A program made the translations under genes and the position numbers. A model generated the notes under the pieces. The model ran no database searches. It was not told the DNA's origin and saw nothing but the letters and a program-made list of their open reading frames with translations. Source: Coleofasciculus sp. B1-GNL1-01 (GTDB taxonomy: Bacteria > Cyanobacteriota > Cyanobacteriia > Cyanobacteriales > Coleofasciculaceae). From it: a DNA stretch of 64,000 bases. Below are positions 1 through 17,039 of the stretch, one piece after another. The stretch lies in NCBI GenBank assembly GCA_040220235.1, contig JAVJTO010000108.1; one strand, 5' to 3'. Each line of letters opens with the position of its first letter. The first letter of the stretch is position 1.

Positions 1-1215
1 AGAATCGGTAAGATAAGCACCCACAATCGCCAGATTTCCCTGAATCGCCACTGCATTGCCAAAGACATCTTGATGCCCAAAGTTCGAGGGGTGGAGTTTC
101 TGTTTTTCTGTCCACACACCGTTCGTATGTTGGAAAATATAGGCACTACCCACAGCCGGAGAACCATTCACTTGAGCCAAACGCGCCCCAATAATCGCTG
201 TCTCGCCACTCATAGCAATTGCACTGCCAAAGATCCCTTTTTCGGGTAAATCTGGAGGTTGTAGCTTCTGTTGAGGCTGCCAAGTTGGGCAGGGTATAAC
301 TAAAGGCATCCAGGCTTTAACCGACGTGAACCCAGAATTATTCAGATTTTCAATAACTGAATCCGGAGACGCGCCTTTATAGCCGACAATTGACCAAGCC
401 CCGCGAAATTGCAATTCATCAATCAGACGGCTACCGATCGCGCGACAGGCATCTTTGGCAGCTTGGGATAGATTGATACTGGCATCATCTTTAAGTGCGA
501 TCGCCACAATTTTCCCATCGGGTATCGCTTCAATTTTCCGGGCAAAGGCATCGGCAACAGACGCATCGGCCAAGAAGTCAAAGGAACCACTCAACACGGG
601 CTTCCCAGTAGCAGGTTCAAAGACTACCACATTTAACCCGCGCTGATATCCCCCCTTAATTGGGATTACATATCCATTCCGGCTAATATGCGTTAAAAAG
701 CCGTACTCTCCGCCCGCCGATGTCGCCGAAATTGCCGCCGTGTTCGCGAAAATGGAGGGGAGCGTAAAGGAACGAGAACAGGTGACACCATGCTCATCCG
801 ATAACGCTTCAGTTGCTGTTCCCGGTGTCGCTCCCTTTTGACCAATCATCGCCCAAGAACTGCGAAACTGGAGATAATAAACCCAATACGCCCCCAACGC
901 CGCACAAGCATTTTTCGCCCGCTCATCCAGATAGACAGTTCCCTCATCCTTCAGCGCGATCGCCACAATTCGACCAACAGGCAGACTCTCCATCCATTCG
1001 GTGAAGGCGATCGTACAACTGGGATCACCAAAGGTATCAAAGGTGGCGCTACCCAGCTTTTGACCCGTTACTTCATGGATAACCGCCACATTCAGTCCGC
1101 GATTGTACGGATCAAACCCGAATTCTTCGTCATTGACAGTAATCCGAGCCGAATTTCCCTGGTTATAAGCCGCCGACTGGACAGTGATATGGAGATGGGC
1201 TTCATTATGGTTCAT
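1..1215 (-). CDS. Tandem ILEI/PANDER (GG) domain protein with C-terminal FG-GAP-like repeats; continues past the window edge
   Basis: Not in the ORF track. Hand translation from ATG 1215 (AGGAAG upstream) gives MNHNEAHLHITVQSAAYNQGNSAR..RGLNVAV..IVAIALKDEG..LQFRSSWAMIG, a second copy GGYQRGLNVVVF..IVAIALKDDA..LQFRGAWSIVG, then FGSAIAMSGETAIIGA..GSAYIF and FGNAVAIQGNLAIVGA. Paralogous to 4533-5456 and 11641-12708. Confidence 0.85.
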   Translation of the reverse strand, partial: MNHNEAHLHITVQSAAYNQGNSARITVNDEEFGFDPYNRGLNVAVIHEVTGQKLGSATFDTFGDPSCTIAFTEWMESLPVGRIVAIALKDEGTVYLDERAKNACAALGAYWVYYLQFRSSWAMIGQKGATPGTATEALSDEHGVTCSRSFTLPSIFANTAAISATSAGGEYGFLTHISRNGYVIPIKGGYQRGLNVVVFEPATGKPVLSGSFDFLADASVADAFARKIEAIPDGKIVAIALKDDASINLSQAAKDACRAIGSRLIDELQFRGAWSIVGYKGASPDSVIENLNNSGFTSVKAWMPLVIPCPTWQPQQKLQPPDLPEKGIFGSAIAMSGETAIIGARLAQVNGSPAVGSAYIFQHTNGVWTEKQKLHPSNFGHQDVFGNAVAIQGNLAIVGAYLTDS

Positions 1216-1310
1216 GCTTTACTTCTTCCTTCACCCGCATCTGAAAAGTTGGTCATTCGTCATTTGTCATTTGTCATTCGTCATTTGTCAAGTCGGGGCG
1301 GGTTTATTTA

Positions 1311-1419
1311 GGGTCTGCTGAATAAGTCTTGTGGTGGGGAGAGGCAATAGGGAATAGGCAATGGGCAATGGTTTCAACCCTCTGTTGATGTAAAATTCGG
1401 CGTTTAGGTCAGCAAGCCC
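1311..1419. mobile_element. MITE family C (ends GGG(T/C)(C/T)TGCTGA) nested inside a REP doublet
   Basis: Ends gggtctgctga / tcagcaagccc; TATTTA duplicated at 1305-1310 and 1420-1425; related copy at 21266-21503 and partial copies near 16757-16791 and 54336. Confidence 0.7.
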
Positions 1420-1474
1420 TATTTACATCTGGGTGTAACCGAAAAGATAGTCGTGAAACCCGCCCCTACACAAT

Positions 1475-1570
1475 TTGCCCCATCTCCCCCATCTTCCCCA
1501 TCTCCCCCATCTTTCCCATCTTTCCCATCTTTCCCTGCTTCCCCTGCTTCCCCTGCTTCCCCTGCTTCCA
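1475..1570. repeat. 9-mer tandem repeats (CCCCATCT(T/C) then CCCCTGCTT)
   Basis: Directly visible arrays; they explain the spurious PHL/PLL ORF 1475-1693. Confidence 0.85.
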
Positions 1571-1577
1571 GCTACAA

Positions 1578-4166
1578 CTACGCCTTATGCTTCAGTGCCT
1601 CCAACACGGTGGGGGGAACTTCTAAATAGGTGTACGAATTGTTACGATCCCTTGACACCAAGAACAGCGTATCGCTGTCGGTGGGAATATTAGTCGTTAC
1701 TCGTACCGTTTCCGAGTCAGCGATAGGGAGCCAGTCCCCACTCGCCGTGAGATATCCCAACTCAGCTAGGTAATCCTGATCCGCTGACGGAAACGTGAGC
1801 AGCACATAATTCTCTGCACCCTGACAATCATATTCCTGGACACAGTGGGAACGATAGCGGTCTGGATCTAAGCTGTCGGAGACATCATATAGACGCAACA
1901 GTAGCTTTTCTCCCCCTTGGCGCTTTAAGGCTTGAATCTGATTGGGCGCTAATTCCCAGTAAGCATAGGCATTTTTGCCACTGTAAGGGACTAAGAAGAG
2001 GCGACTGTGAGAGAGATTCGGGGAATGAGACAGCCAGGTTCCTTCACCTTGACCTATGCCTCCTGGGAGGACATTGCCCGTCCCGAAAATCGGCGTCACC
2101 CGCACAGTTTCCGATCGCGTCAACGGTAACCAGTAGCCTTCACGGGTCAAGTAACCCAGTTCCACTAAATAATCCCGGTTCTCTGCGGGTAAGGATAACA
2201 GTAAATAGTTTTGCTCCCCCTGACATCCGAACTGTTGTAGCATCGGCGGCTGATCCCGCTCTGGATTAGGACTATCGGTGACATCATACAGACGCAACAT
2301 CAGCTTTTCTCCCCCTAAACGCTGGAGGGATTGGGCTTGAGCGGGGGCAATGTCCCAATAGGTATAGGCATTTTTGCCGTCATAAGGAACTAAAAAGAGG
2401 CGACTGTGAGCGGGGGCTGGCGGGTAATATCCTCCTCCATACCCAGATGGGGAAGGGGGTGCAGTCATCGCTGCGGTTGTCGTGGCTGGGTAGGGCGATG
2501 GCGCCAGCCAAGCTTGTGGGTTTGGAGTGGCGGTGACGGCGGGACTGATGGGAATTGTCGGAGAAACCCGCACCTTATTTGAGGTAGCCAAGAGCAGCCA
2601 TTCTCCGCCTGGGGTGAGATACCCTAACTCCGCTAAATAATCCCGATTCTCTGCGGGTAGCGTCAACAGGATATAAGGAGGTTGAGGCTCACAGCTAAAC
2701 TGCTGGAGGAGATAGGGGGGCTGATGGGGCGAAATCAGGCTGTCGGTGACATCATAAAGCCGTACTACCAGATCTTTGCCACCTTGATGCTGGAGATTCT
2801 GGATATGGGCGGGGGCTACGTCCCAATAGGCATAAGCGTTTTTGCCATCATAAGGGACTAAATGTAAACTGCTGTGGGCTGGGGCTGGTGCTGGGGCTGG
2901 TGCTGGTGCTGGGGCTGGTGCTGGGGCAGCGACTGGGGTTGGAGGCGGAACAGCCACACCTGCTGTGTTTGTGGGTTTGCCATTCGTTGCTATTCCCCCA
3001 GCTCCCCCAGCAAAAGGACGACGGGCTGAACGATCATCATCATCGCGATTTTTAAGCAGCCAGACGAGGAAACCACCAGCTAGAAACGAAAGGGCTATGA
3101 GTAACGGCACCCACCAGGGAATCAGTCCGGGTGGCGTGGCTTGGGCATCGACATCAGCCTCATCTACCTCGACAGGGGCGGCGGGTTCGGGCGAATCCGG
3201 AGAATCCGGTGCCTGGGCTAGCTGGGGTGCGGCGGCGGGTTCTTCGATCGCCTCTTCTGGTTCTGTGGTGGTTTCGGCAACAGCCTCGTCAACTGCCTGC
3301 TCATTAGAGGGATCTAAAGCATAGCCGATAAAGGCTTCTACCGCAGGCGTTGCAGGTTCCTTATAGACATAAGACAGGGATTGGGAAAAAGGATAGCGTT
3401 CATCATCGGGAAAGACTTTATGCATGGGGATGATTGTCACATCCTGACGATCAAACACTTGATCCGCGATCGCATACCCAATCCCGCCAGCGTTTTTTCC
3501 CAGTTCTTCAATTACGGCATCAGTACTATCTCGATCTACCTGGGTGGTATTGGCTCCGGTTCTAAAGGATGCCGCTTTAAACACATCGTAGCGTTGAAAA
3601 GCCTGCCGGGTATCACTATAGTCCGGGCGATCAATTAATTGAATTGGTCCAGGTTCACCCCCAAGTTCTGACCAATCGGTAATTTCGCCTCGGAATATCC
3701 GGGAAAATTGCTCGAAGGTAATATCTATATCCTTGTAAGGACTATTGGGTCCCACTAGAATCGCAATCTTTTGCCGACTTAAGGGAATTTGCACTAATCC
3801 TTGTGCCTTTTCTACCGCCGTCAATGGGCGTCCGATCGCCGCCAGATCAATCTCTTCATTAACCAAGGCTTCTAAGGCGGCGGTACTCCCGGCGGCATTG
3901 AGTTGAACATCACTATTGGGATACTGTCGCTCAAAGCGCTCTTTTAAGGCTTGATTTACCTTTGCCATACTGCTAGAACCATCCAGCCGCACTGTTGTCC
4001 CACGGGGAACGGACTCCGGTACCTCGAATTCCTCCGGTGAAACCTGAGCCAATACTGGACTCAGCCGCAGGGAGGTGAATCGGAACTGAGGGCTAACAGT
4101 TCCTAGCGTCAAAAATAGCATACCTGAGGCAAGGAATGCCTCTTTAGGTTTGAACATCTGCATCAT
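1578..4166 (-). CDS. PstS-like substrate-binding domain + TM helix + three DUF4912-like repeats
   Basis: VRLDGSSSM..GSTAALEAL..IDLAAIGR..FSRIFRGEITDWSELGG (PBP2/PstS-like); TM WWVPLLIALSFLAGGFLVWLL; (AP)n linker; three repeats of LxLVPYxGKNAYxYW..LRLYDV..DYLAELGY. Confidence 0.8.
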   Translation of the reverse strand: MMQMFKPKEAFLASGMLFLTLGTVSPQFRFTSLRLSPVLAQVSPEEFEVPESVPRGTTVRLDGSSSMAKVNQALKERFERQYPNSDVQLNAAGSTAALEALVNEEIDLAAIGRPLTAVEKAQGLVQIPLSRQKIAILVGPNSPYKDIDITFEQFSRIFRGEITDWSELGGEPGPIQLIDRPDYSDTRQAFQRYDVFKAASFRTGANTTQVDRDSTDAVIEELGKNAGGIGYAIADQVFDRQDVTIIPMHKVFPDDERYPFSQSLSYVYKEPATPAVEAFIGYALDPSNEQAVDEAVAETTTEPEEAIEEPAAAPQLAQAPDSPDSPEPAAPVEVDEADVDAQATPPGLIPWWVPLLIALSFLAGGFLVWLLKNRDDDDRSARRPFAGGAGGIATNGKPTNTAGVAVPPPTPVAAPAPAPAPAPAPAPAPAHSSLHLVPYDGKNAYAYWDVAPAHIQNLQHQGGKDLVVRLYDVTDSLISPHQPPYLLQQFSCEPQPPYILLTLPAENRDYLAELGYLTPGGEWLLLATSNKVRVSPTIPISPAVTATPNPQAWLAPSPYPATTTAAMTAPPSPSGYGGGYYPPAPAHSRLFLVPYDGKNAYTYWDIAPAQAQSLQRLGGEKLMLRLYDVTDSPNPERDQPPMLQQFGCQGEQNYLLLSLPAENRDYLVELGYLTREGYWLPLTRSETVRVTPIFGTGNVLPGGIGQGEGTWLSHSPNLSHSRLFLVPYSGKNAYAYWELAPNQIQALKRQGGEKLLLRLYDVSDSLDPDRYRSHCVQEYDCQGAENYVLLTFPSADQDYLAELGYLTASGDWLPIADSETVRVTTNIPTDSDTLFLVSRDRNNSYTYLEVPPTVLEALKHKA

Positions 4167-4413
4167 CAGTAACCTGGATTCTCTTTAATAAGTTTTTGAG
4201 TTAACGTTTAAGGGAGGCGCAAGCCATGTCAAATGATTTTTGTCAGCTTTATAGAATGTCTGACAATGGCAAAAAAATATAATATCTTATTTTGCTTTTT
4301 TGATCTAGATAGTTCATGAAAATTCATATTATTGGCGAAGATACCATAACCAATAGATAACGTTTTAGTTTTGACTTGACTCATACCCCTCTCATCTGCT
4401 CGATTTATTTAAC

Positions 4414-4535
4414 TAAGTAGTCGGACAAAAGAAAATAGTACGCTCCGGAGCCAGTTTTATAAATCACCCTCAACCCCTTACTGTTAAGAGTCACCTAATC
4501 TCAACCGTTCACTTTAATGAAACTCCACCGACTTA
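4414..4535. mobile_element. MITE family B (TAAGT..ACTTA ends), reverse orientation
   Basis: Reverse-complement similarity to 29062-29210, 39786-39909 and 60906-61023; its terminal TTA is the stop codon of CDS 4533-5456. Confidence 0.7.
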
Positions 4536-5456
4536 ACTCAGTTCCGAGACATTCTCTAACCAAACTCGAAATCCGACGGGTTGCTCATGACTCAGTTGTT
4601 CTATGGCGGAATCGGCTAATGTATCTTTATATCCCACAATCGCCCAAGAACTGCGGAATTGTAGATGGCGAATCAAGCGACTGCCAATGGATTCACAGGC
4701 TTGTTTTGCCCGTTCGGAAAGATTGACAAAAGCATCATCTTTGACGGCAATAGCAATACCGTGTTCTGGGGAACAATCTTCAATCAGTTGGGCAAAGGCA
4801 TCAGCATTCTCTGGGTTAGCAAATAAATCAAAGGAACGACTGATTTGTTGAGTTGTATCGTGACGGTTAAAGACAACAACATTTAATCCCCGTTGATATC
4901 CTCCTTCTATCCCTATCTCTTGGTTATTCCAGGTGATTTGGGCAAAATTTCCCTGATTCCCGCCTGCCGATATTACCCCTAAGCTGGGACGCTTTACAGC
5001 ATCCGCAGAGACAGGAAGTAAACGAGAACAGACGACATTTGAATAATCCGATAATTCTTCTTGGGCGATTCCGGGTTGGGCATCTTTTTGACCAATTAGC
5101 GCCCAAGAGGTGCGAAATCTCAAACCGTAAACTTGCCGACTGCCCAGGGATTGACAGGCGCGTTTAGCCCGTTGATTCAGGTTGGCACTCCCATCATCTT
5201 TAACCGCGATCGCGACAATTTGACCACTGGGTAATTGTTCCACCAGATCGGCAAATCGGTCGGCGTTTCCCGGTAAAAAGGTATCAAATGTGGTGCAAAC
5301 TAACGGTTGTCCTGTTACTTCATCGATAACAGCAACATTCAGTCCGCGATTATAGTGAATAAAGCCAATTTCTTGGTTGTTCAGGGTGATTAGGGCTGAG
5401 TCTCCCATGAATCCACCCGCTGATTGAACTGTTATCGTTACTGTTGAAGAAGTCAT
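4533..5456 (-). CDS. Tandem ILEI/PANDER (GG) domain protein
   Basis: Two copies of RGLNV(A/V)V..FD..AIAVKDD..L(R/Q)FR(T/S)SWA(L/I)(I/V)G, the ILEI/FAM3/POMGnT1-stem pattern. Confidence 0.8.
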   Translation of the reverse strand: MTSSTVTITVQSAGGFMGDSALITLNNQEIGFIHYNRGLNVAVIDEVTGQPLVCTTFDTFLPGNADRFADLVEQLPSGQIVAIAVKDDGSANLNQRAKRACQSLGSRQVYGLRFRTSWALIGQKDAQPGIAQEELSDYSNVVCSRLLPVSADAVKRPSLGVISAGGNQGNFAQITWNNQEIGIEGGYQRGLNVVVFNRHDTTQQISRSFDLFANPENADAFAQLIEDCSPEHGIAIAVKDDAFVNLSERAKQACESIGSRLIRHLQFRSSWAIVGYKDTLADSAIEQLSHEQPVGFRVWLENVSELS

Positions 5457-5524
5457 TTAAATTAATGAGAGTTGATGCAACCGGGATGATGTTTATTTAA
5501 AAGCGCTAAAGCGCTTACAACGAA

Positions 5525-6595
5525 CTAATGAACATATTCGCCATAGGCAAACCCCTTTGCTTGTATTGTTTCCCCTTGCAGCACCAGAGTCACGTCAACC
5601 GTACCCGTCACTTCTTCAATAAAGGTATATTGGCGACTCTGATTATCGGGTACAATTAACTCGCTAGTGGCATCAAATGCCATGGTTAATGACAATTGAT
5701 CCTGATCATCTGCCGCTTGCACTTGTAACTGTTGAGGCATACTCACTGTGCGATCGCCAAACAGTGACGCCATAATTCCAGGCAGACGTAACGGTAAACT
5801 GGCAGTGGCAGACCAATCCCAATCAATTTGTAACGTAGACCCCAAAAATACCTTCCGCAAGCGAGTGCCAGAATAGATAAAAATATAGGGTAAACCACTA
5901 ATGGAATGGTTTTTATTTGTACGTTTATCTAACACGAGTGTGAACGATCTGCCCTTTTTGTCCGTAACATAAGCGACAAACCATTCCCAACCAATATCCT
6001 CGCCCCAGCGAAACCGACCAAAATTGCGATCGTGATAGCAAAACCAGTCATGATCAATGGCAAAGGATCGCCCACAAACGGATACGTTTCCCGAAACCTT
6101 TAACCCTGGAATTAATCCCCACCCAATAAACCCACTCCCGAATGGCGCATCCTCGGTTACTAATAGGGGCATGGCTTCAGCTTGTCCTTGAACGTTGAGG
6201 GAAAGCTGCGCCCTCTCGTCGTGAACTTGAACCGATGAGTTCATGCCATTAATTTCCAGATTTATCCCCTTCCCTTGCAGACGTAAGGGGTGACGACATA
6301 CCATGTCAGGTTGCCAGTCTAGGCTAAAAGTTGTACCAAAAGTTGCCACTGCGGGAGAGGATTCCAGTTCTGGGGTAATTTGGGTGGAGGGCAAGTTGAC
6401 AATAAAGCTAACTTGCATCTGCCCCTGTTCCGGTCTGCCGATGAGAGTCGCGTTGACGAGTAGGCGGATTCCTGTTTTCAGATCCAGCCAAATAAAGTGA
6501 TACCAATCCTTCCAATCCAGAGGTAAGGCGGGATCTTCGAGGGGAATGCGTAAAGCTTCGACACGGTTAAGGAGAACTTGTTCGTTGACATTCAT
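5525..6595 (-). CDS. Hypothetical protein, CrtC/AttH/tocopherol-cyclase-like beta-barrel fold (tentative)
   Basis: WKDWYHF near the N-terminus and CYHDRNFGRFRWG..GWEW resemble the EWWYF and YHDHNWG..W motifs of that superfamily; 4-nt overlap (ATGA) with the upstream gene. Confidence 0.5.
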   Translation of the reverse strand: MNVNEQVLLNRVEALRIPLEDPALPLDWKDWYHFIWLDLKTGIRLLVNATLIGRPEQGQMQVSFIVNLPSTQITPELESSPAVATFGTTFSLDWQPDMVCRHPLRLQGKGINLEINGMNSSVQVHDERAQLSLNVQGQAEAMPLLVTEDAPFGSGFIGWGLIPGLKVSGNVSVCGRSFAIDHDWFCYHDRNFGRFRWGEDIGWEWFVAYVTDKKGRSFTLVLDKRTNKNHSISGLPYIFIYSGTRLRKVFLGSTLQIDWDWSATASLPLRLPGIMASLFGDRTVSMPQQLQVQAADDQDQLSLTMAFDATSELIVPDNQSRQYTFIEEVTGTVDVTLVLQGETIQAKGFAYGEYVH

Positions 6596-8256
6596 CGCCC
6601 CAGGGAACCTCCTTCATTGAGAACATCATTGAACATGACTGGGGAAGCTGGAGTAGGCGTGAGAGGCGGTGGGGCTTGATCCGCGATCGCCTGCACCCAC
6701 TTCGCCATCTTTGGTGACACCTGAATCAGTCCCAACAGAATCCCCACAAACCAGCGCTGGGCATCCATTCCCAGTTCGGAGACGAAGGTTTTTGTCGCTG
6801 CATTGGATACGGAAACGGGGTTGTCCATCCCTTTAACGTTTAAGGCATTGGGAACTAATGTCCACAGCCATCGTTCGCCGACATGAAGTAATCCCCCTTG
6901 TCCCATCTGCACCCCCAGAGAGGAATGATACGCCGCCGCCGCCGATTGACTGATCACCAGCCACCGGGGGGCTTGGGCTGAGGCAAAGGCGAGGACGCCA
7001 TTCTTGAAGAAACGAGTACGGCTGAGTCGATTGAGTAATTGGCAACCCGCTTCTGTGCGGCTGTAGGTATCTCCTTGTTGTGCCAACAGGATCAGGAGTT
7101 CTACCACCAACCAACGTCCTGGAAGTCCATCGAGTCCCGGTAATCCGGTGGTTAAACTGTAGCTGGCTTGGGCGGGAATGGTTTGATCAATCATCGGTAG
7201 AGTTGAATCCTGAGTCGCGATCGCCTGGAAACAATTAGCCAGTCTGGGTGACACCTGGGCAAGTCCCAAAATCAGTCCCGCAAACCATTGTTCAGGGTTT
7301 TGCGTATTGAGTATTGACGCTTCGCTTGGCTGATAGGAAATCGGGTTTGTCGGGGCGGGTTTAGCGACTTTCTTGTCGCTATTTGTAGTAACGTTTGTGC
7401 CAAACCCGCCCTGATTCAATTCTGAGTGAACTCCCCCATCTCCCCCATCTTCCCTATCTTTTCTATCTCCCCCATTCCCCATTTCAATATCAGTTTGGGC
7501 TAAATCAAATAACCATTCCTCCCAAATAGCAAGCAGATGCTGTTGTCCAATTTGCGCGGCGAGGAGAGTATTCGCCATCGAGATACTACTCGATATCCAA
7601 GCGGGGACTTGGGCTGAGGAAAAGGCATAAACGCCATTGCGATAGAACTGGGTGCGACTCAGTTGGCTGAGTAATTCATTCCCTTGGGGCGTTTGGGCAT
7701 AATTGGTGCCATGTTGACACAACCGAGTTAACAGTTCCGCCACCAACCAACGGGCAGGAATTTTATCCAAATCGATTAATCCCGACATCAGACCAAAGAT
7801 CCCGGCGGTACTGGGTTCAGCCGTTCCCAAATAGTTTTCCTTGCTGTCTCTCGGTGGTGGAAATGTCACCATTAAGGGATGGATGACGGGAGTGCGATCG
7901 CGGGTTTCTGTTGTGTCTAAGAGTTCTAATTGAATGGGAATGGCGTCTTCTAGCCAACCCGGAAATCTTAACCAGGTTTTCATGCTGATCCCACTCGGCA
8001 AATAGTCGGGAATGGGAATCGTTAACTGACAGGTTGATTCATACTCTGGAAACAAATAAACATACGTCGGATCTAAACGACTAACAATGGGCAAAATTTC
8101 GCTGTCATTGAGCAGCCAATCATCTAGAGTCGGACGTAACAGGACGGCTTCATGAAGCTGATTCCGGATCAAGAGCTGGAAAACTAAGTCTGTGCCGGAA
8201 TGGATTTTTAACCTTACTTGGGGCAGGGCGAGTTTTTTTTCTAAACGCTGACTCAT
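6592..8256 (-). CDS. Hypothetical protein with an internal duplication
   Basis: 554-aa ORF; LDKIPARWLVAELL..LSRTQFYRNGVYAFSSAQ recurs as LDGLPGRWLVVELL..LSRTRFFKNGVLAFASAQ. Confidence 0.8.
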   Translation of the reverse strand: MSQRLEKKLALPQVRLKIHSGTDLVFQLLIRNQLHEAVLLRPTLDDWLLNDSEILPIVSRLDPTYVYLFPEYESTCQLTIPIPDYLPSGISMKTWLRFPGWLEDAIPIQLELLDTTETRDRTPVIHPLMVTFPPPRDSKENYLGTAEPSTAGIFGLMSGLIDLDKIPARWLVAELLTRLCQHGTNYAQTPQGNELLSQLSRTQFYRNGVYAFSSAQVPAWISSSISMANTLLAAQIGQQHLLAIWEEWLFDLAQTDIEMGNGGDRKDREDGGDGGVHSELNQGGFGTNVTTNSDKKVAKPAPTNPISYQPSEASILNTQNPEQWFAGLILGLAQVSPRLANCFQAIATQDSTLPMIDQTIPAQASYSLTTGLPGLDGLPGRWLVVELLILLAQQGDTYSRTEAGCQLLNRLSRTRFFKNGVLAFASAQAPRWLVISQSAAAAYHSSLGVQMGQGGLLHVGERWLWTLVPNALNVKGMDNPVSVSNAATKTFVSELGMDAQRWFVGILLGLIQVSPKMAKWVQAIADQAPPPLTPTPASPVMFNDVLNEGGSLGR

Positions 8257-8350
8257 TTAACACCTATCGGGCGGCGTTTTACTCAATCCATTTTAATCTT
8301 TATTCACTCTTTTATTTGACGATTTTTCATTAAGTTAAATTACGGTGGTG

Positions 8351-8477
8351 TAAGCTGTTCGGCATTTAAACCTTAATGTAAATAATGGCGAAAGCCTTGT
8401 AGTGCGTTAAGCGAAGCCATGCCGCAGGCTTTGCATCTTGCTCGCTACTAATACCCAACTTAATGCATGACAGCTTA
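8351..8477. mobile_element. MITE family A (~128 bp, TAAGCTGT..ACAGCTTA)
   Basis: Near-identical copies at 14716-14843, 39647-39774 and 60777-60905; terminal inverted repeats bounded by TA. Confidence 0.85.
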
Positions 8478-8877
8478 ATTCATCTATGTCGTTGTATTCT
8501 CCTGGCATAATTAATTGCTTTGCTGGCTCTAACTCCTTCGTTCAGTGACATTCTATGTCAATGACTAGCACTGGATAAAAAAGGTTGTAGGTTAGGTGGT
8601 GCTGTGGCTAACTTCAGCTATCAAGGGTCAGCTTGGTTACGCTTCGATAAAAATTAGCCTAGGATTCAGACACCTAACCTACAAAATGTTGGTTTAAGTT
8701 AGTTACATCTAAATATGCTATTAACGATAACCAATGGAACACCAGGATGTAAATGCATAAAAGTTGGTCAAAATTGGTTAATTTCTGCCAGAGTCCTTTA
8801 AGATGCTTATTTTGTGCATTTTGTCAATACATAAAAGTTGGTAAGTTATCGCCTTTGAGAGGGTAACGGCGAACAGG

Positions 8878-8950
8878 TATAGCAACCGCCATGGCTGTTA
8901 GGACACATCATTTATGTAGAGACGCACCATGGCGCGTCTCTACAATGGTG
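8878..8950. repeat. TATAGC-headed element end + GTAGAGACGC-CATGG-GCGTCTCTAC REP palindrome
   Basis: Almost identical to 40713-40785; palindrome copies also near 13137, 21507 and 44515. Confidence 0.7.
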
Positions 8951-9007
8951 CCGAACTAGCACGTCTCCACATTTATCAGAGGTCAAGAACAAATGACCAA
9001 TGATGAT

Positions 9008-9988
9008 TTAATCCAGAACCATCCAATCAACAGTGATACACCCTTTGTTATCCCAATACCATCCCGGCTCATCATTCATCTTAAAGATCACAGTTTGACC
9101 CGCTTTTAAACTGAGAGTCTTAGCACTATTGATCTCTTCAATAACTTCACCACTCGCTTGATCTACAGCAACCAAGGCGTAGGGGGTATTGTTCGGATAA
9201 GTCACATGACTTAACAGATCAGCCCCTGGTTCTCCGGCGGCGGTAATTTCTACTCCGTCTTTCACCGACCAAGTACCAGAGGGGGTGACTTTAATTTTAG
9301 CAGCCGTATCCATAGGATTTTGGAACTCTACCCCTTGTTCAAAAGTTGCATGGACTTGCAATTGACCGGAGGGGAGGACTTTTTTCTCAAAAGCTTTATA
9401 GGTTACATTATTTTGGGAGAAGTTATAGAACGCAATCCGCCCTTCACTAAAATCGCCGTCAAGATCAATTTCTAAGCTGCCATTCACAGAGACTTGCAAA
9501 TTCGTTTTGGTATAAACAAAGTCAAACGTATTTTCAACATGTTTTTCCCATCCCTTATTGCCCAATGTTTTTCCCCGCGCCAGTTCAGTGACTTTACCCG
9601 TATGACTCCAGAATTCCGCTTGATCTTTAGGAACTCCATTAATTAAAGATACCGCTAATCCGGTTTTGGCAAGTTCTCCCCACCGTTTCTGCTGACCTTT
9701 CCTCCAATCAACGAGTAGATATTTAGCAGAACTATTGGTGGTATCTCCCGGTTGGAATCCTAGGGCAAACCCAATAAAATCATCATCCCCAGTGTTGCCG
9801 ACGCTTATTTTACCGGAGACTTTGGTATTAAATACATTAAATGGACTATAAAATAACGTAGGTTTGCCATTCTTTTTCTGGATTACTTCTTGTCCATTTC
9901 GAGATATATCCCATTTGCCTGAACCTTTTTCATAAGATTCTTCTTGCCAGTGGTTGAGATCGACCGTTTCGACTTTAATGTGAGCCAT
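9008..9988 (-). CDS. Thrombospondin C-terminal-like lectin domain fused to a LecA/PA-IL-like domain
   Basis: DDDFIGFALGFQ resembles the TSP_C motif DDDYAGFVFGYQ, with GRIAFYNFSQ; C-terminal YALV..MNDEPGWYWDNKGCITV resembles LecA GALV..YNDVPGTYGNNSGSFSV. Confidence 0.6.
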   Translation of the reverse strand: MAHIKVETVDLNHWQEESYEKGSGKWDISRNGQEVIQKKNGKPTLFYSPFNVFNTKVSGKISVGNTGDDDFIGFALGFQPGDTTNSSAKYLLVDWRKGQQKRWGELAKTGLAVSLINGVPKDQAEFWSHTGKVTELARGKTLGNKGWEKHVENTFDFVYTKTNLQVSVNGSLEIDLDGDFSEGRIAFYNFSQNNVTYKAFEKKVLPSGQLQVHATFEQGVEFQNPMDTAAKIKVTPSGTWSVKDGVEITAAGEPGADLLSHVTYPNNTPYALVAVDQASGEVIEEINSAKTLSLKAGQTVIFKMNDEPGWYWDNKGCITVDWMVLD

Positions 9989-10236
9989 TTTATTCAGTCC
10001 TTATTCGTTTTTTTGAGTTGTGAACGTGTCAAGTTTGCTTGAACTATAATGAACTTAACAACTATCCTGAATCTGAGGATTCTATTATTTTAATCGAGCT
10101 TTATTCAGTTCTGCTCAAAATCATCTGTTTTTTTCAAAACTTAACATTTTTGCAATCATCGTTTGTTGATCACTTATCCATACGGCAAATAGCCATAACG
10201 AATGACAAATGACGAATAACAAATGACAATCAAAAC

Positions 10237-11601
10237 CTACTTACTGCGATAAATGACATAATTAATCAACTCCTTCATAAATCGACGGTCATGAACTGGA
10301 GACACCCATTGTTCTCCGGGTCGCAGTGGGGTCTCCGGGAACAAAAACTCCAAATTATCAAAGATATCGGCGGCTTTTTGAGCGAGCGATCGCGCCACGT
10401 TCCAGCCGTGTTCAATGCTGCCACATCGCTGCATTTGTTCCATAATGAAGGCAACATGATCAGGATGTTTTTGCGTGCGCGGCAATGCTAGAATTTCCCG
10501 CATTTTCTCCGATTCCTGTTTACTGTTGGCTAAAACATGGTTCAGCATTAACGTGCGTTTTCCTTCGTAGATATCACCGCCAATTTCCTTGCCATAGGAT
10601 TCCATTTCCCCCTGGAGATTTAATAAATCATCTTGAATTTGAAACGCGATCCCCAAAATCATGCCAAATCGGGTTAATCCAGCCAAAGGTTCAACTAAAT
10701 CCTGGACACTGGAGGCAGGATGTCCAACAATGAGACCAATCCGACAAGGGGTAATAAAGGAGTACCAACAGGTCTTCTTCACGCACATGGTAAAGTAATC
10801 TTGGTCACTCAGATGGGAAGGATTCGTCGCCACCCAATCCAATTCCATCGCTTGACCTTCCACAGATTGCCGTGCCATGAACTCAATTTCATGTAAAATA
10901 TTCAGCGCCTTGGATACCCCCAGCACCGATAAGTTTTCCAGCAGCAATCCCACCGCTAAAACATTCGTCGCATCCCCCACATTAATCGCACGGGGAATAC
11001 CAATCATTTGATGTAATGTCCCCTTTCCTCGTCGAGACTCCGACTCATCTTCGATGTCATCGTGAATCAAAAACGCATTGTGATACAGTTCCAATGCAGC
11101 AGCAGCCGTTAATGCCGAATGTCCCATTCCTCCCACCGCGCGGGCGACACTAATACACATCGTTGGACGCAGCATTTTCCCGACGCGAAAGGGATAATCA
11201 CTTAATAGATCATACAGAGGACTATAAGCCCCGGACACTTGGCGCTGGCTTTGGATAAATTCCTCAATTTTGACAAAAATGGCGTCTCGCGAACCCTGTA
11301 ATGCCTCGTTGATAATGCTTTGATTAAACTTAGAGGAATCGGCGACGATACATTGTTCCTGATCATCCTTTGCTGCCTCTAATTGGGCAAGATCAGATAA
11401 GGTAGTGGCAATCGCCTTACGACTGCCTGAATCAATATCTGATACCGTTGGCGGCGAAGGTTTAGGCGTCGGGGGGTGAGGCAGTAAAACTTGGCGGGGT
11501 GTAGATTTCAGCTTGAGGATTGGGAATTTTTTGGGGTCATACAATAACAAACTGAAGAAGGTCAAAAATACGAGAAATAAGAATAGTCCTAACATTAACA
11601 A
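10237..11601 (-). CDS. Polyprenyl diphosphate synthase family protein with N-terminal hydrophobic anchor
   Basis: GKMLRP, FARM IHDDIEDES, RRG, INVGD, GQAMEL, KKT, SARM FQIQDDLLN, GKEIGGDIYEGK. Confidence 0.9.
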   Translation of the reverse strand: MLMLGLFLFLVFLTFFSLLLYDPKKFPILKLKSTPRQVLLPHPPTPKPSPPTVSDIDSGSRKAIATTLSDLAQLEAAKDDQEQCIVADSSKFNQSIINEALQGSRDAIFVKIEEFIQSQRQVSGAYSPLYDLLSDYPFRVGKMLRPTMCISVARAVGGMGHSALTAAAALELYHNAFLIHDDIEDESESRRGKGTLHQMIGIPRAINVGDATNVLAVGLLLENLSVLGVSKALNILHEIEFMARQSVEGQAMELDWVATNPSHLSDQDYFTMCVKKTCWYSFITPCRIGLIVGHPASSVQDLVEPLAGLTRFGMILGIAFQIQDDLLNLQGEMESYGKEIGGDIYEGKRTLMLNHVLANSKQESEKMREILALPRTQKHPDHVAFIMEQMQRCGSIEHGWNVARSLAQKAADIFDNLEFLFPETPLRPGEQWVSPVHDRRFMKELINYVIYRSK

Positions 11602-11640
11602 TTTTCCTCTAGAGTGTCGGTTCAGAAATAGCCTTTATAT

Positions 11641-12708
11641 TTAGTCCTTATTAATTAAAATAGCCCCGATGACAACAATAACGATAATAGCCAGCAAAAG
11701 TCCGATAATGATTACTTGTTTCTTGTTCCCTGAGCCTGATTCGGAGGATTCTATCGATTCAGCCACAGGTTGAGCCACGGATGGAGTAACTGGGGAAGAG
11801 TCAACCAAGGGAAACCAGGCGTTGACAGAAACGGAGCCAAAATTATTCAAATTTTCGATAACTGCACCCCCAGAAGCACCTTTGACGCCGACAATCGCCC
11901 ACGATCCTCTAAATTGAAGACGGTCAATTTGGGTGCTACCAATCAACTTACAGGCGGCTTGGGCGCGATCCGAGAGATTAAAGCTGGCGTCGTCTTTCGC
12001 CGCGATCGCAACCACCCGACCCTGTGGTATAGTCTCTATCCAGTCGGCAAAGGCATCTGCATTCGCGGGATCAGCATAGAAATCAAAGGATCGACTGTGA
12101 AGGTGATGCCCATTGGACTGATCAAAAACAACGACATTTAGACCCCGTTGATATCCTCCCGTAAAGGAAACCAGTTCCCCATTACAGGTAACTTGAGCCA
12201 TGTTACCCCAATTATTCCCTGCTGATGTCACAGCGACAACAAAACTAGGAACTTTAACCTTTGTCGCCGTAATCTCCCGCGAACAAGTCACCGCCGCCTC
12301 ATGAGACAACTTTTCTGTTGCCGTTCCCGGTGCAGCACCCGTTTGACCAATTATCGCCCAAGAACTGCGGAATTGCAGGTGATCAATTAAGCGACTTCCC
12401 AAGGATTTACAGGCTCTTTTGCCTGGATCAGATAAATTAAAGTTAGCATCATCTTTAATGGCAATGGCGACAATTCGACCTGGGGGTAAGGTAGAGACAA
12501 ATTGGGCAAAGGACTCGGAGTTGCCTGGGTTAAAGGTATCAAACGTCGTGCCAAAAATGGGTTGTCCGGTAAATTCATCGAAGACGGCGACATTGAGTCC
12601 GCGATTGTAGAAATTCTCACCCAAGTCTTGGGTATTGAACCTAATCGACGCCGAGTTCCCGTGTTCATAACCGGCTGAGGACACTTGCACTGTTAAGTCA
12701 TTCGTCAT
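11641..12708 (-). CDS. Tandem ILEI/PANDER (GG) domain protein with C-terminal TM anchor
   Basis: Two ILEI-like repeats (RGLNVAVFD..IAIKDDA..LQFRSSWAIIG) and C-terminal VIIIGLLLAIIVIVVIGAILI. Confidence 0.8.
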   Translation of the reverse strand: MTNDLTVQVSSAGYEHGNSASIRFNTQDLGENFYNRGLNVAVFDEFTGQPIFGTTFDTFNPGNSESFAQFVSTLPPGRIVAIAIKDDANFNLSDPGKRACKSLGSRLIDHLQFRSSWAIIGQTGAAPGTATEKLSHEAAVTCSREITATKVKVPSFVVAVTSAGNNWGNMAQVTCNGELVSFTGGYQRGLNVVVFDQSNGHHLHSRSFDFYADPANADAFADWIETIPQGRVVAIAAKDDASFNLSDRAQAACKLIGSTQIDRLQFRGSWAIVGVKGASGGAVIENLNNFGSVSVNAWFPLVDSSPVTPSVAQPVAESIESSESGSGNKKQVIIIGLLLAIIVIVVIGAILINKD

Positions 12709-13199
12709 TTGTCATTCGTCCTTTGTCAGGGAATAGGGAACACCTCGACTCCGCTCGGTGTGAATAGGTAAGGTAGAGTTTTGAGTTGAGGGATTCTTCA
12801 TGGGGGTGCTTGCTTCGGCTTCCCGTCCGGTGAACTTAAGTCTTAACCGTTCCTTGGGGAATCCTAGGATGAGGGATTAAACCTGAAACTGTACAAATGA
12901 AATGTGAACATCTCTTCCGGTTAAACCCTGACAGGGAGATAAAATTACCTAATTTTTTGTTCACGAATCATTTGGACTTACTAGATAGCTATATATTTTT
13001 GGAGGTTAGATAGGCAAATTAACAAACTTCATTTACATCAAGCTAATAATAGGCTAAAAAATAATCCTACCACTAATAGTTGTCAGGATTAGGCAGGGAT
13101 GTTGGGAGATGGGGAGATGAGAGCAGGGGGAGCCACGTAGAGACGCGCCATGGCGCGTCTGGGAGATGAGGGAGATGGGAGACAAAATTTCTATAGCCC

Positions 13200-13329
13200 A
13201 TTATCCTGTTCCCTATTCCCTATTCCCTATTCCCTATTCCCTGTTCCCTGTTCCCTAACAAATGACGTAGCTTGCTTCTCGCTTGCGCGAGTATGACGAA
13301 TGACAAATGACAAATGACAAATGACCAAT
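13200..13329. repeat. Heptamer tandem repeats (TTCCCTA/TTCCCTG; ATGACAA)
   Basis: Directly visible. ATGACAA/TTGTCAT arrays also at 1252-1290, 10200-10229, 12700-12726, 31849-31910, 35599-35648 and 54496-54580. Confidence 0.85.
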
Positions 13330-14619
13330 AAACGTATTGTTTTAACCGCCTATGGCTCCTTTGGCGATATTCATCCCTATATGGCGATCGCATTGGAGTT
13401 GCAAGCACGGGGACATCGTGCTGTTATTGCCACAAGTGAACTGTATCGCTACAAGATTGAAGCCGAGGGGATTGGATTTCATCCGGTTCGCTACGATAGT
13501 GCGATCGATATGCAGCAGGATGGGGAGTTTATCGGCGTGCTGTCGGAATCCCGTCGGGAAAGTGAATACACGATCTGTTATCTATTAATGCCCCATCTGA
13601 GGGCGACATACAAAGCGTTACTCGAAGCCACACAGGATGCGGATCTACTGTTAACGCATCATTTAAGTTTTGCCGGATCATTAGTTGCGGAAAAAACGGG
13701 CATTCCGTGGGTGTCAACGGTTCTCTCTCCGATCCTATTTATGTCGGCTTACGATTCCCAAACCCTTTCCACGACAACCATCTCCTCTTATGAACAAGCC
13801 TTAGCCGTTGTCGCCAATGACGCCCGCTTACGCCAATTTCGTTGGCAAGCCCGGTTATGGAGTTCGCCGATACGTCAATTGCGTGAGGAATTGGGGTTAC
13901 CACCCAGTTGTGATCCGGTGTTTGAAGGTCAACATTCGCCGGATTTGGTACTGGCGTTATTTTCTGCAAAGCTAGCCAAGCCGCAACCGGATTGGTGTCC
14001 CCAAACTCAGGTGACGGGGTTTCCTTTTTACGATCGCGCCAAACAGGAGAACTTGTCTCCAGAATTGGCAAGGTTTCTTGACTCTGGATCTCCTCCGATT
14101 ATATTTACCTTGGGTTCGCTGATGGTATGGACACCCGGAAACTTCTATTTAGAAGGTGCGATCGCAGCTCAACAGTTAGGATACCGGGCGGTGTTATTGG
14201 TGGGCAAAGGAGTCCCCAACCTACCGTTAAACCAGTTACCCGAAGGGGTGATTGTAGTTGACTATGCCCCCCACTCCGAAATTTTCCCCCGTGCGGCGGT
14301 AATTGTGCATCATGGCGGAGTCGGCACCACCGGACAAGCTTTGCGATCGGGGCGTCCCATGTTGGTGGTACCTTATGCCCATGATCAACCCGATAATGCG
14401 ATGCGGTTAGTGCGTTTAGGGGTAGCGCGTACTCTCGCCCGACATGAGTACAGTGCAAATACATTAATGGCTGAACTCAAACAACTCTTATTTGAGCCGA
14501 GTTATGAAAGCAAAGCGGCGGAGGTGGGAAAGCGGGTGCAGCAAGAAGATGGAGTCAAGGCGGCGAGTGACGCGATCGAAACCTATCTCAGATCTCAGGA
14601 AAATGGGCAATCAAAGTAG
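13321..14619 (+). CDS. GT1-family (UDP-sugar, GT-B) glycosyltransferase
   Basis: GSFGDIHPY..LQARGH; FTLGS; YAPHSEIFPRAAVIVHHGGVGTTGQALRSGRPMLVVPYAHDQPDNA (PSPG-like). Confidence 0.9.
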   Translation: MTNKRIVLTAYGSFGDIHPYMAIALELQARGHRAVIATSELYRYKIEAEGIGFHPVRYDSAIDMQQDGEFIGVLSESRRESEYTICYLLMPHLRATYKALLEATQDADLLLTHHLSFAGSLVAEKTGIPWVSTVLSPILFMSAYDSQTLSTTTISSYEQALAVVANDARLRQFRWQARLWSSPIRQLREELGLPPSCDPVFEGQHSPDLVLALFSAKLAKPQPDWCPQTQVTGFPFYDRAKQENLSPELARFLDSGSPPIIFTLGSLMVWTPGNFYLEGAIAAQQLGYRAVLLVGKGVPNLPLNQLPEGVIVVDYAPHSEIFPRAAVIVHHGGVGTTGQALRSGRPMLVVPYAHDQPDNAMRLVRLGVARTLARHEYSANTLMAELKQLLFEPSYESKAAEVGKRVQQEDGVKAASDAIETYLRSQENGQSK

Positions 14620-15163: not shown

Positions 15164-15499
15164 TCAACCCACTGCAAACCCCGTATATTGCCTAACTAAA
15201 GGTTCATGAAACGCCAAAACGATATCTTCTTTGGGAACTCCTAACTTCACTAATTCATTAGCAATACCAACTTCCGTACCATCATGCTGTATCCAAATTT
15301 TGTCATTTTTAATATCCAAATGTAACACACAGCCATGCTGTCGTCGTCTGTTTTTCCAACCCACATACATCAACTGATAATGGTTGCCAACTGGATCAAA
15401 AATTAGTTGTTGTTCAATTTCGTCCTGAGTTGAACCCACACTGGCATAGTCAGTTATGACTTGTTGGACATAATTTTGATATTTTTTTAGTTTTTCCAT
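15164..15499 (-). CDS. xisI: XisI family protein
   Basis: HYQLMYVGW..HLDIKNDKIWIQHDGTEVGIANELVKLGVPKEDIVLAFH. Confidence 0.92.
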   Translation of the reverse strand: MEKLKKYQNYVQQVITDYASVGSTQDEIEQQLIFDPVGNHYQLMYVGWKNRRRQHGCVLHLDIKNDKIWIQHDGTEVGIANELVKLGVPKEDIVLAFHEPLVRQYTGFAVG

Positions 15500-15900
15500 G
15501 CGACAATAACCTCCTGCACCGGATCATAAACAATGAGTTTAAGCCGAAACCGCTGAATCACGGTTTGAATAAACTGCAACTTAAAGAAAGCGTGATAGAT
15601 TCCTGAAGGAACAGCCAAATATAGAACTCTTTCTGGCTCTTGTTCTTCTAATGCCACACGATAATTAAAACACTGTCCAATAGCTGTATGAAATTCCGAA
15701 ATGTTTGACGCCCCAATAAAACTCTTAATTTCCACCGCTATTTTTTCGCCATCCCTTTCCGCCGCTAAAACTTGCTCCGCCCCCAGGTCAATATACATTT
15801 CAACATCACCAATCTTAATCCGAAAAGGGTCATCAGTAATCAGCCAACCCTCTTTTTGCAATCCGTTCCTAACAGCATTATGAAAAATATCTTTCGCCAC
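15487..15900 (-). CDS. xisH: XisH family protein (PD-(D/E)xK fold)
   Basis: AKDIFH..GWLITDDP..IDLGAE..IAVEIKSF..FHTAIGQ; likely start GTG 15900 (track start 15948); overlaps xisI. Confidence 0.92.
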   Translation of the reverse strand: MAKDIFHNAVRNGLQKEGWLITDDPFRIKIGDVEMYIDLGAEQVLAAERDGEKIAVEIKSFIGASNISEFHTAIGQCFNYRVALEEQEPERVLYLAVPSGIYHAFFKLQFIQTVIQRFRLKLIVYDPVQEVIVAWKN

Positions 15901-16159
15901 ATCCCACCCACAGCCAAATTTAATCGTTTTTACTCTTAATTCTACCACAAATACCCACCATGTCTGATTTAACTAACATCCTGTTGAGGACACGGCAGTG
16001 CCGTGTCCCTACCCTTTCCCCGAAATAATTGATTGCGTAGGGACAGGATAATATCGTCCCCTTCTCAAGACAGAAATGCTAAGATTTAAACCGAGAATAA
16101 AAAGCGCGATCGCGAGTTGTCCTATACAAAGCTGTGCTATAAGAAAAGCTTTATATTCC

Positions 16160-16738: not shown

Positions 16739-17039
16739 GCCAAAATCTTGTAGATTTCCTCTCCCCACCACAAGACTTATTTAGAATACCCTATATTAGG
16801 TTGGGTTTGTAGTGGGGAACCTTAGCCCTAGATTCGGTTGGGTTTCGACTTCGCTCAACCCAACCTAAAATCTATACTTTCTGATTATTTACACTGGGCA
16901 ATTGTCCCTTGTTCTGGAGATAAGAAAACCTATAATTACGGCTTTAGTTAGGGTACGGCAGTGCCGTGCCCCTACCCTAACCCAGAAATCATTGATTGCG
17001 TAGGGACACGATACTATCGAACCTTTCTCAATACTGCTT

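What the first reader, a model, noticed from the sequence alone, without database searches (positions are those of the whole stretch)
1..14619. Lectin/isoprenoid cluster: three tandem-ILEI proteins, a TSP-C/LecA lectin, prenyl synthase, CrtC-like enzyme and a GT1
Seen: eight consecutive minus-strand genes plus a divergent GT1. Three genes are paralogous double-ILEI(GG) proteins with different tails (TM anchor, none, FG-GAP repeats). They are interleaved with a TM-anchored polyprenyl synthase, a translationally coupled pair (duplicated unknown + CrtC/tocopherol-cyclase-like) and a two-domain lectin. Known: ILEI/GG domains occur in animal FAM3 proteins and in the sugar-binding POMGnT1 stem; CrtC-fold enzymes modify isoprenoids; GT1 enzymes glycosylate lipophilic acceptors. 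Inference: a possibly undescribed pathway that makes a glycosylated isoprenoid and encodes its binding proteins. I do not recognise this combination.
Basis: partly seen in the sequence, partly recalled or inferred. Interest (0 to 1): 0.8.

Follow-up and report, generated by a model that had tools for sequence, protein, structure and literature searches.

The report
Isoprenoid lipid pathway with swappable lectins
A four-gene core found in several bacterial phyla likely builds and chemically modifies an unknown isoprenoid lipid, and the cyanobacterial versions add a sugar-transfer enzyme plus a changing set of lectin-type genes whose proteins would bind the sugar-capped product.

Summary
The conserved unit is a core: prenyl diphosphate synthase, Ig-plus-helical unknown, AttH/CrtC-fold enzyme and an SCP2 lipid-carrier gene that lies just outside the window. 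Of 78 related loci, 68, 70 and 54 carry the synthase, unknown and SCP2, across Cyanobacteria, Proteobacteria, Bacteroidota, Rhodothermota and a deltaproteobacterium, with an actinobacterial variant. The enzyme keeps CrtC's catalytic Y-x-D and W-x-W in 90 of 90 homologues but lacks its His239 (113), and is naturally fused to SCP2 in some. GT1 occurs in 37 of 53 cyanobacterial loci and 0 of 22 others; a methyltransferase shows the reverse, 0 and 18 (123). ILEI is not the fixed partner: 43 of 53 cyanobacterial loci carry a lectin-like gene, drawn from about ten unrelated folds, against 0 of 25 elsewhere. Best reading: prenyl chain, acid-catalysed hydration, sugar or methyl cap, cytoplasmic lectins binding the glycoside. 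Product, diphosphate removal and lectin ligand are untested. I found no description in the paper searches run.

The parts
10237..11601 (-). Core: trans-prenyl diphosphate synthase (archaeal/Thermus IdsA-like), with a predicted N-terminal membrane helix and variable linker
   Evidence: PF00348 E 7e-55 (5); best PDB Thermus GGPP synthase 1wmw E 5e-50 (36); AFLIH-DDxxD in 109 of 110 homologues examined, hydrophobic N-terminus in 52 of 110 (79); 68 of 78 loci
6592..8256 (-). Core: unknown protein, N-terminal Ig/PapD-like domain plus a helical unit that is doubled in cyanobacteria and single elsewhere; likely partner or scaffold
   Evidence: No family hit; alignment; model of the single-unit homologue L066 (41) gives Ig-like matches Z 8-10, helical part not tested; 70 of 78 loci
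5525..6595 (-). Core: AttH/CrtC-fold enzyme, predicted acid catalyst Asp189
   Evidence: Fold Z 22-26 (25), Foldseek E 1e-12 (24); profile vs PF07143 proteins 94.9% (89); Y187, D189, W31, W203, W205 in 90 of 90 (113)
13321..14619 (+). GT1 family glycosyltransferase, cyanobacterial capping enzyme candidate
   Evidence: Pfam/NCBIfam; PDB OleD/OleI and sterol glucosyltransferase E 1e-22 to 1e-26; 37 of 53 cyanobacterial loci, 0 of 22 others
11641..12708 (-). Lectin slot: 2x ILEI with C-terminal membrane tail, no signal peptide
   Evidence: Pfam; best PDB POMGnT1 stem E 3e-15 with R129/D179/R207 equivalents aligned
9008..9988 (-). Lectin slot: TSP_C domain plus LecA-like domain
   Evidence: TSP_C E 2e-11 (5); LecA E 0.065 with N-D-x-P-G-x-Y-x-x-N-x-G aligned
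4533..5456 (-). Lectin slot: 2x ILEI, no tail
   Evidence: Pfam; PDB FAM3B/POMGnT1 (95)
1..1215 (-). Lectin slot: 2x ILEI plus 7 FG-GAP repeats (694 aa; continues outside the window)
1578..4166 (-). Recurrent accessory: PstS-like PBP domain, membrane helix, 3x DUF4912
   Evidence: Pfam; 12 of 78 loci; its PBP domain is fused to a lectin-like domain and the GT1 in one ORF in L036

Best explanation
This is a conserved, dedicated isoprenoid gene cluster whose synthase likely makes a short to medium prenyl chain, whose AttH/CrtC-fold enzyme is predicted to protonate a prenyl double bond with Asp189 and likely adds water to give a tertiary alcohol, whose GT1 would cap that hydroxyl with a sugar, and whose signal-less lectin-like proteins would bind the sugar at the cytoplasmic face of a membrane. 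SCP2 likely carries the lipid to the hydratase-like enzyme, and the Ig-plus-helical protein is likely a partner or scaffold. Other phyla keep the core and likely cap with a methyl group instead. Shown: gene content, linkage, folds, conserved residues, fusions, GT1/methyltransferase exclusivity, lectin enrichment. Inferred: every reaction, the order of steps and the lectin ligand. My split: core makes or modifies an isoprenoid lipid 0.8; GT1 acts on it 0.7; reaction is hydration rather than cyclisation 0.5; lectins bind the product 0.4.
For: Core linkage in 78 loci and in 35 actinobacterial-type loci. The genome has other PF00348 genes on C21 and C23; the cluster synthases form their own clade with AFLIH before the first DDxxD in 70 of 72. 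CrtC's catalytic residues are D268, Y266, W241, H239 (PMC4717167, passages) and W110, W283, W285 (PMC12402844, passages); ours has Y187-x-D189-x-N-x-G, W159-G, W31, W203-x-W205 at matching spacing, conserved in 88-90 of 90. CrtC hydrates terminal prenyl groups of C13-C20 terpenoids. Enzyme-SCP2 fusions in 5 of the 150 listed representatives. Isoprenoid-specific extras in non-cyanobacterial loci: second IspH in 6 of 22, geranylgeranyl-reductase family over cut-off in 3 of 22. In 401 cyanobacterial-phylum genomes the two best GT1 hits (60%) are on the same contigs as the only two intact CrtC-like genes outside our genome. Lectin-like gene within 3 kb of a core gene in 43 of 53 cyanobacterial loci, 0 of 25 others, and only 3 such genes elsewhere in our 8.66 Mb genome. 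Among 41 relatives ILEI is in 10 of 11 genomes with the unknown gene and 2 of 30 without. One ORF fuses PBP, membrane helix, lectin-like domain and GT1. ILEI sugar-binding triad kept in 55, 52 and 49 of 62 domains.
Against: No phosphatase, UbiA-type transferase, phytoene synthase or class I cyclase is among the conserved neighbours, so the fate of the diphosphate is unexplained. CrtC His239 is replaced by Ile/Leu/Met/Val (113), and the same fold also houses Diels-Alderases and a phosphosteroid lyase. The lectin folds have different known sugar preferences, which is odd for one ligand. ILEI proteins also occur without the core (G356, G553, G074). GT1 relatives at 32-55% occur in 12 genomes lacking the core. 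10 of 53 cyanobacterial loci have no lectin nearby, several on short contigs. The lectin profiles were seeded from these same loci and the background was measured in one genome only; 7 of the 53 loci are one genus. In G190 and G392 the synthase is on another contig than the CrtC-like gene.
Confidence: 0.45

Rival explanations
1. Defence island: the core makes a cyclic or linear terpenoid glycoside (saponin-like deterrent; the AttH-fold enzyme would act as a protonation-initiated cyclase), and the cytoplasmic multivalent lectins are separate anti-grazer proteins kept beside it for shared regulation, not binders of the product.
For: Lectin folds are interchangeable and often two different folds share one protein (ricin-B+jacalin, LecA-like+LamG); they lack N-terminal hydrophobic stretches (0 of 36 ILEI, 0 of 28 LecA-like), as fungal cytoplasmic defence lectins do (recalled). 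Tle1-like and patatin phospholipases lie in 6 and 3 loci. CrtC chemistry was modelled on squalene-hopene cyclase.
Against: No toxin domain was found in 17 long lectin proteins scanned. Lectins appear only where GT1 appears. A lectin-like domain is fused to the GT1 in L036. Tail anchors (6 ILEI, 9 of 13 of the 177-aa family) fit a membrane role.
Confidence: 0.27
2. Lectins are accessory modules of the glycosyltransferase, recruiting an acceptor or partly glycosylated product, as the ILEI stem does in POMGnT1.
For: Membrane helix-lectin-like-GT1 fusion in L036; best PDB hit of the anchored ILEI protein is the POMGnT1 stem.
Against: One fusion in one assembled genome; most loci carry several free lectins, more than an enzyme helper needs.
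Confidence: 0.1
3. Carotenoid tailoring: an extra GGPP synthase, a divergent CrtC and a CrtX-like GT1 make carotenoid glycosides from the host's carotenoids.
For: CrtC catalytic motif retained; ESM Atlas top cluster is auto-named carotenoid 1,2-hydratase family; hydratase followed by methyl or sugar cap mirrors CrtC/CrtF and CrtC/CrtX (recalled).
Against: His239 missing; no crtB/crtI-type gene among conserved neighbours; cyanobacteria use CruF for this step (PMC6013536, passages); SCP2 and the unknown gene are not part of crt clusters (recalled).
Confidence: 0.1
4. Chance assembly at an insertion hot spot.
For: P450 and pentapeptide genes next to it are not conserved (2 and 4 of 78).
Against: Core order, -4 overlap and fusions persist across phyla.
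Confidence: 0.03

Closest known systems
Acyclic carotenoid tailoring: CrtE, CrtC, then CrtF (methyl) or CrtX/CruG (sugar)
   Same: Prenyl synthase, AttH-fold acid enzyme with Y-x-D-x-N-x-G and W-x-W, then a methyltransferase or a glycosyltransferase
   Different: No phytoene synthase or desaturase in the cluster; His239 absent; 356-aa enzyme below all Pfam cut-offs; fixed SCP2 and Ig-plus-helical partners; lectin slot
Kievitone hydratase, AttH NE1406, fungal Diels-Alderases CghA/Fsa2/Phm7, 25-phosphosteroid lyase
   Same: Same double-barrel fold, Z 22-26
   Different: 8-14% identity; fold alone does not fix the reaction
POMGnT1 stem / FAM3 (ILEI, GG) domains
   Same: PF15711 and the Arg-Asp-Arg sugar-binding triad
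   Different: Tandem, bacterial, no signal peptide, free or tail-anchored, replaceable by unrelated lectin folds
Family 2B encapsulin polyprenyl-transferase operons (PMC8346489, passages)
   Same: Related IdsA-like synthase with a long unannotated N-terminus (NF041169, 162 bits)
   Different: Far below the 450-bit cut-off; no shell gene among conserved cyanobacterial neighbours; the actinobacterial variant has a weakly HK97-like gene instead
Heteromeric trans-prenyl synthases (HepS/HepT, HexA/HexB; names recalled)
   Same: A helical protein follows the synthase gene closely
   Different: No sequence or fold link shown; the protein has an Ig-like domain and is coupled to the CrtC-like gene

Membership tests
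CrtC carotenoid 1,2-hydratase | AttH-type double beta-barrel fold | tested here: met
CrtC carotenoid 1,2-hydratase | Tyr266-x-Asp268, Trp241, Trp110, Trp283-x-Trp285 | tested here: met
   Y187, D189, W159, W31, W203, W205 (113), mapped by motif and spacing from papers, not by alignment to a CrtC sequence
CrtC carotenoid 1,2-hydratase | His239 two residues before the conserved Trp | tested here: not met
   Position 157 is L/I/M/V in at least 86 of 90 (113); a different His (H33) is in 89 of 90
CrtC carotenoid 1,2-hydratase | PF07143 over cut-off; location in a crt cluster | tested here: not met
   No hit for the window protein; 3 of 90 homologues weak, best E 0.003; no crtB/crtI among conserved neighbours
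CrtC carotenoid 1,2-hydratase | Hydrates lycopene or neurosporene | not testable with these tools
   needs assay
Tocopherol cyclase | PF14249 match and a prenylquinol pathway | tested here: inconclusive
   No hit for the window protein; weak in 19 of 90 distant homologues, best E 1e-5 (75); no UbiA-type gene among conserved neighbours
Trans-isoprenyl diphosphate synthase | Two Asp-rich motifs, PF00348 | tested here: met
   DDIED and xDDLLNL; the second matches the Thermus enzyme's DDVLNL
Trans-isoprenyl diphosphate synthase | Chain-length class (FPP, GGPP, longer) | tested here: inconclusive
   Ala at -5, Phe at -4 of the first motif; under every NCBIfam cut-off
ILEI/FAM3 sugar-binding domain | PF15711 and Arg129/Asp179/Arg207 equivalents | tested here: met
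ILEI/FAM3 sugar-binding domain | Binds GlcNAc or other sugar | not testable with these tools
   needs glycan array
LecA/PA-IL lectin | Profile match and Ca/galactose loop | tested here: inconclusive
   E 0.065 with the C-terminal loop aligned; PF07828 E 0.0019 in one homologue
Family 2 encapsulin prenyl-transferase cargo | NF041169 over cut-off | tested here: not met
   162.5 bits vs 450 (6)
Family 2 encapsulin prenyl-transferase cargo | Family 2 shell gene in the genome | not tested
   Only the actinobacterial candidate shell profile was run on the genome, no hit
HK97-fold encapsulin (actinobacterial upstream gene, not in this window) | HK97 fold | tested here: inconclusive
   Linocin_M18 in 6 of 89, best E 0.06; two PHROG major-head families E 0.03-0.07; profile comparison E 0.067, within shuffled controls 0.015-0.75; no PDB hit

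The most novel reading that the evidence does not exclude
Bacteria make their own glycosylated isoprenoid lipid and read it inside the cell with a swappable set of lectins, organising a membrane domain or lipid body; other phyla run the same core with a methyl cap and put Ig-domain proteins or an unrecognised HK97-type shell in the structural slot, so the core is an undescribed compartment-associated lipid pathway with a new AttH-fold terpenoid enzyme family.
Probability: 0.22. Interest if true: 0.87.

Novelty: new variant of a known kind. Interest (0 to 1): 0.7.

Why it matters
It defines a compact, expressible pathway (four core genes plus one capping enzyme) spread over at least six phyla-level groups, including cultured mat- and bloom-forming cyanobacteria (Okeania, Microseira, Cylindrospermum, Nostoc, Arthrospira), with no known product. 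It adds a family of some 400 AttH-fold representatives that are candidate terpenoid hydratases or cyclases. It gives bacterial ILEI/FAM3 domains a testable context, and the repeated recruitment of unrelated lectin folds to one slot is a strong sign of selection for sugar binding next to a lipid glycosyltransferase.

Tried and rejected
Complex prediction of the CrtC-like enzyme with the unknown protein: no answer, score 0.00; not used either way. RNA: eight small-share runs; four laid are contig sets up to 78 kb long that look DNA-rich and come from 90-95% relatives, so nothing on expression or co-transcription. Promoter/terminator scan: at or below chance. Sequence search of the CrtC-like enzyme in PDB and plasmids: nothing. 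ESM Atlas on the helical unit: no usable hit. Fold search of the unknown was filled by its Ig domain; the helical unit remains untested. Helical unit vs the actinobacterial 152-aa and 92-aa genes: only a short local match (probability 22-24%, E 8e-4), so homology is suggested, not shown. Attempt to fetch a true CrtC through PF07143 gave AttH-type proteins only. Encapsulin identity of the actinobacterial gene: inconclusive. Careful tree did not finish; the quick tree was used. Lipocone paper (bioRxiv 2025.01.14.632903, passages) and Jiangella paper (PMC13608877, passages): no such cluster in the passages seen. Paper searches listed no description; searches were for mechanism. The original POMGnT1 structure paper was not held. 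No supplements were read; supplementary operon tables of encapsulin or terpene-mining papers could list this cluster. Earlier-findings look-ups were empty. Rejected: housekeeping synthase; ILEI as a fixed core member; P450 and pentapeptide genes as members.
Full report
Observation. The window is C108:23536-87535 of an 8.66 Mb genome; nearest named relatives are Coleofasciculus at 90-96% protein identity. The contig continues past window position 1 on the same strand with the rest of the ILEI/FG-GAP gene, a P450, a pentapeptide protein, a 177-aa tail-anchored lectin-like protein, a DUF2235 hydrolase, an alpha/beta hydrolase and a 174-aa SCP2 protein. All six ILEI domains of the genome lie in this cluster, and the CrtC-like, unknown and SCP2 genes are single-copy.

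The conserved core. A scan of 185,579 genomes with the CrtC-like alignment returned 78 loci (the best 80 of 86 matches were kept). By tblastn the unknown is in 70, the synthase in 68, SCP2 in 54, GT1 in 39; loci stop at 10 kb or a contig end, so these are lower bounds. 53 loci are cyanobacterial (five untitled ones assigned by identity and by the tree), 22 are Burkholderiales, Rhodanobacteraceae, Bacteroidota, Rhodothermales and one deltaproteobacterium, 3 are Actinobacteria. Order synthase-unknown-enzyme(-SCP2) is the rule. The cluster is patchy: 4 of 401 phylum genomes including ours, one of them a stop-ridden fragment, but 8 of 8 same-genus genomes. In 35 actinobacterial-type loci (3 named, and 32 of 80 unnamed metagenome loci, those of 4 kb or more) the order is 1450-aa ATPase regulator (17), 260-aa unknown (26), synthase (28), 152-aa (31), 92-aa (30), enzyme (35), SCP2-like (31), large flavoprotein (32). 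In a quick tree the synthases of each phylum form one group, far from the genome's other two synthases, which suggests an old system with many losses rather than recent exchange; this was not tested further.

The enzyme. The model is confident and belongs to the AttH/kievitone hydratase/Diels-Alderase/25-phosphosteroid lyase fold. About 400 representatives at 50% identity match the profile. CrtC mutagenesis identifies H239, W241, Y266, D268 (PMC4717167, passages) and W110, W283, W285 (PMC12402844, passages). The primers printed in the first paper give the local context H-R-W-G-P and Y-L-D-S-N-E; ours reads I-G-W159-G and Y187-H-D189-R-N-F-G, followed by W203-x-W205. Y187, D189, G193, W31, W197, W203, W205 are in 90 of 90 aligned homologues, W159 in 88, H33 in 89, E353 in 89, while the His239 position is aliphatic. 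So it likely works like CrtC (acidic Asp, aromatic cation stabilisation) but fails membership. Five of the 150 listed representatives are enzyme-SCP2 fusions, which ties it to a lipid substrate.

The synthase and the unknown. The synthase is nearest to Thermus GGPP synthase, has both Asp-rich motifs and an unusual Ala/Phe pair before the first, so chain length cannot be called. 84 of 110 homologues have an N-terminal extension and 52 a hydrophobic helix; non-cyanobacterial ones have neither. The unknown has an Ig/PapD-like domain related to three further unknown genes that flank the core in 16 of 22 non-cyanobacterial loci (profile probability 91% to one of them; counts), and a helical unit with conserved RWxxxE, TxFFxNG and WExW motifs. 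An earlier AI note describes a Massilia-type operon with IspH, an archaeal-style synthase, a helical partner and a GGR-family reductase; I did not test whether that partner is related.

The cap. GT1 is in 37 of 53 cyanobacterial and 0 of 22 other loci; a class I SAM methyltransferase directly upstream of the synthase is in 0 of 53 and 18 of 22 (families). The split follows phylum, so it is one or a few events, not 75 independent ones. An independent sample agrees: among 401 genomes the two closest GT1s share contigs with the two intact CrtC-like genes, while 12 genomes hold more distant GT1s without the core. A second IspH (6 of 22) and a geranylgeranyl-reductase-family gene (3 of 22) support isoprenoid chemistry.

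The lectin slot. Pfam names the neighbours as ILEI, ricin-B, jacalin, galectin, LamG/ConA, TSP_C, fascin/FRG1, H-type (weak), PA-IL (weak), bulb lectin (weak), DUF642 and crystallin (77 of 120 candidate neighbours were scanned in 90, and 17 proteins in 130). With profiles built from these, 43 of 53 cyanobacterial loci have one within 3 kb of a core gene or GT1: ILEI 17, ricin-B 17, LecA-like 15, LamG 10, TSP_C 9, H-type 6, jacalin 5, DUF642 5, fascin 2, galectin 1; 36 of 46 without the seven nearest relatives; 0 of 25 non-cyanobacterial loci. Our genome has 3 such genes outside the cluster, about 0.5% per 15 kb. ILEI is over cut-off in only 3 of 401 phylum genomes. Caveats: profiles were seeded from these loci, some folds (LamG, TSP_C, DUF642) are not always lectins, and the background is one genome. 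Apart from DUF642 proteins almost none has an N-terminal hydrophobic stretch; some have C-terminal tails, so they are predicted cytoplasmic or tail-anchored. In L036 one 1069-aa ORF joins homologues of three separate genes of our cluster: PBP (46%), the 177-aa lectin-like domain (53%) and GT1 (61%), with a hydrophobic helix after the PBP; it is a single case from one assembled genome. Against strict linkage, G356 has a five-ILEI protein with no core nearby.

Mechanism and odds. The simplest reading is chain synthesis, acid-catalysed hydration, capping, and binding by cytoplasmic lectins (0.45). The main gap is how the diphosphate is removed or what head group receives the chain; the unknown helical unit, a host phosphatase, or the enzyme itself (its fold includes a phosphate-eliminating lyase, known here from PDB titles and a search listing) are the candidates. 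The strongest rival is a defence island of a terpenoid glycoside and independent anti-grazer lectins (0.27).

Novelty. The parts belong to known folds, and the logic resembles CrtE-CrtC-CrtF/CrtX, but the core composition, the enzyme family and the lectin slot were not found in six paper searches (open-access library only, supplements not read). I rate it a new variant of a known kind, interest 0.7.

Noticed in passing
L083:7351-8088, L097:7288-8064 and 24 more loci: A 260-aa gene just upstream of the synthase in the actinobacterial variant gives weak, repeated hits to HK97-type profiles (Linocin_M18, two PHROG major-head families; one homologue carries PF25209) and has some 700 homologues. 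It may be an unrecognised encapsulin class; not shown.
   Followed up: partly
L001:10965-11489 (C108:15967-16500, outside the window): SCP2 gene that belongs to the core; separated from it by lectin, P450, pentapeptide, DUF2235 and alpha/beta hydrolase genes.
   Followed up: yes
L052:11549-14335, L066:12872-15361: Four unknown genes (about 120-170, 270, 230, 210 aa), three sharing an Ig-like domain, two Cys-rich, travel with the core in 16-19 of 22 non-cyanobacterial loci; not found in our genome (65). Possibly structural.
   Followed up: partly
L036:13111-16317: Single ORF fusing PBP, membrane helix, lectin-like domain and GT1.
   Followed up: yes
window about 7290-7490: Residues about 258-322 of the unknown protein are an in-frame insertion that matches some 30 other places in this genome and in same-genus genomes: a dispersed repeat translated inside the gene.
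   Followed up: partly
L183:8951-11857: Stand-alone 968-aa protein with five ILEI domains, a hydrophobic helix and an unannotated C-terminal domain with His and Cys motifs, by eye papain-like; no Pfam hit there (130).
   Followed up: partly
L031, L033, L037, L042, L043 downstream of the enzyme: Arrays of DUF642 proteins, some with VWA or H-type domains and signal-like N-termini, one with a weak HpiC1 cyclase hit (E 1e-4), in the Okeania-type clade.
   Followed up: no
L066:11611-12852: The extra IspH in six Burkholderiales loci scores best to the long PRK13371 form (419 bits).
   Followed up: no
window 13210-13250 and 13310-13330: Short tandem heptamer repeats between the divergent ILEI and GT1 genes.
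   Followed up: no
window 15164-17755: XisI/XisH-like pair, Uma2 protein and a DUF433/DUF5615-like pair directly after the GT1 (names by eye, not scanned); the usual mobile filler.
   Followed up: no
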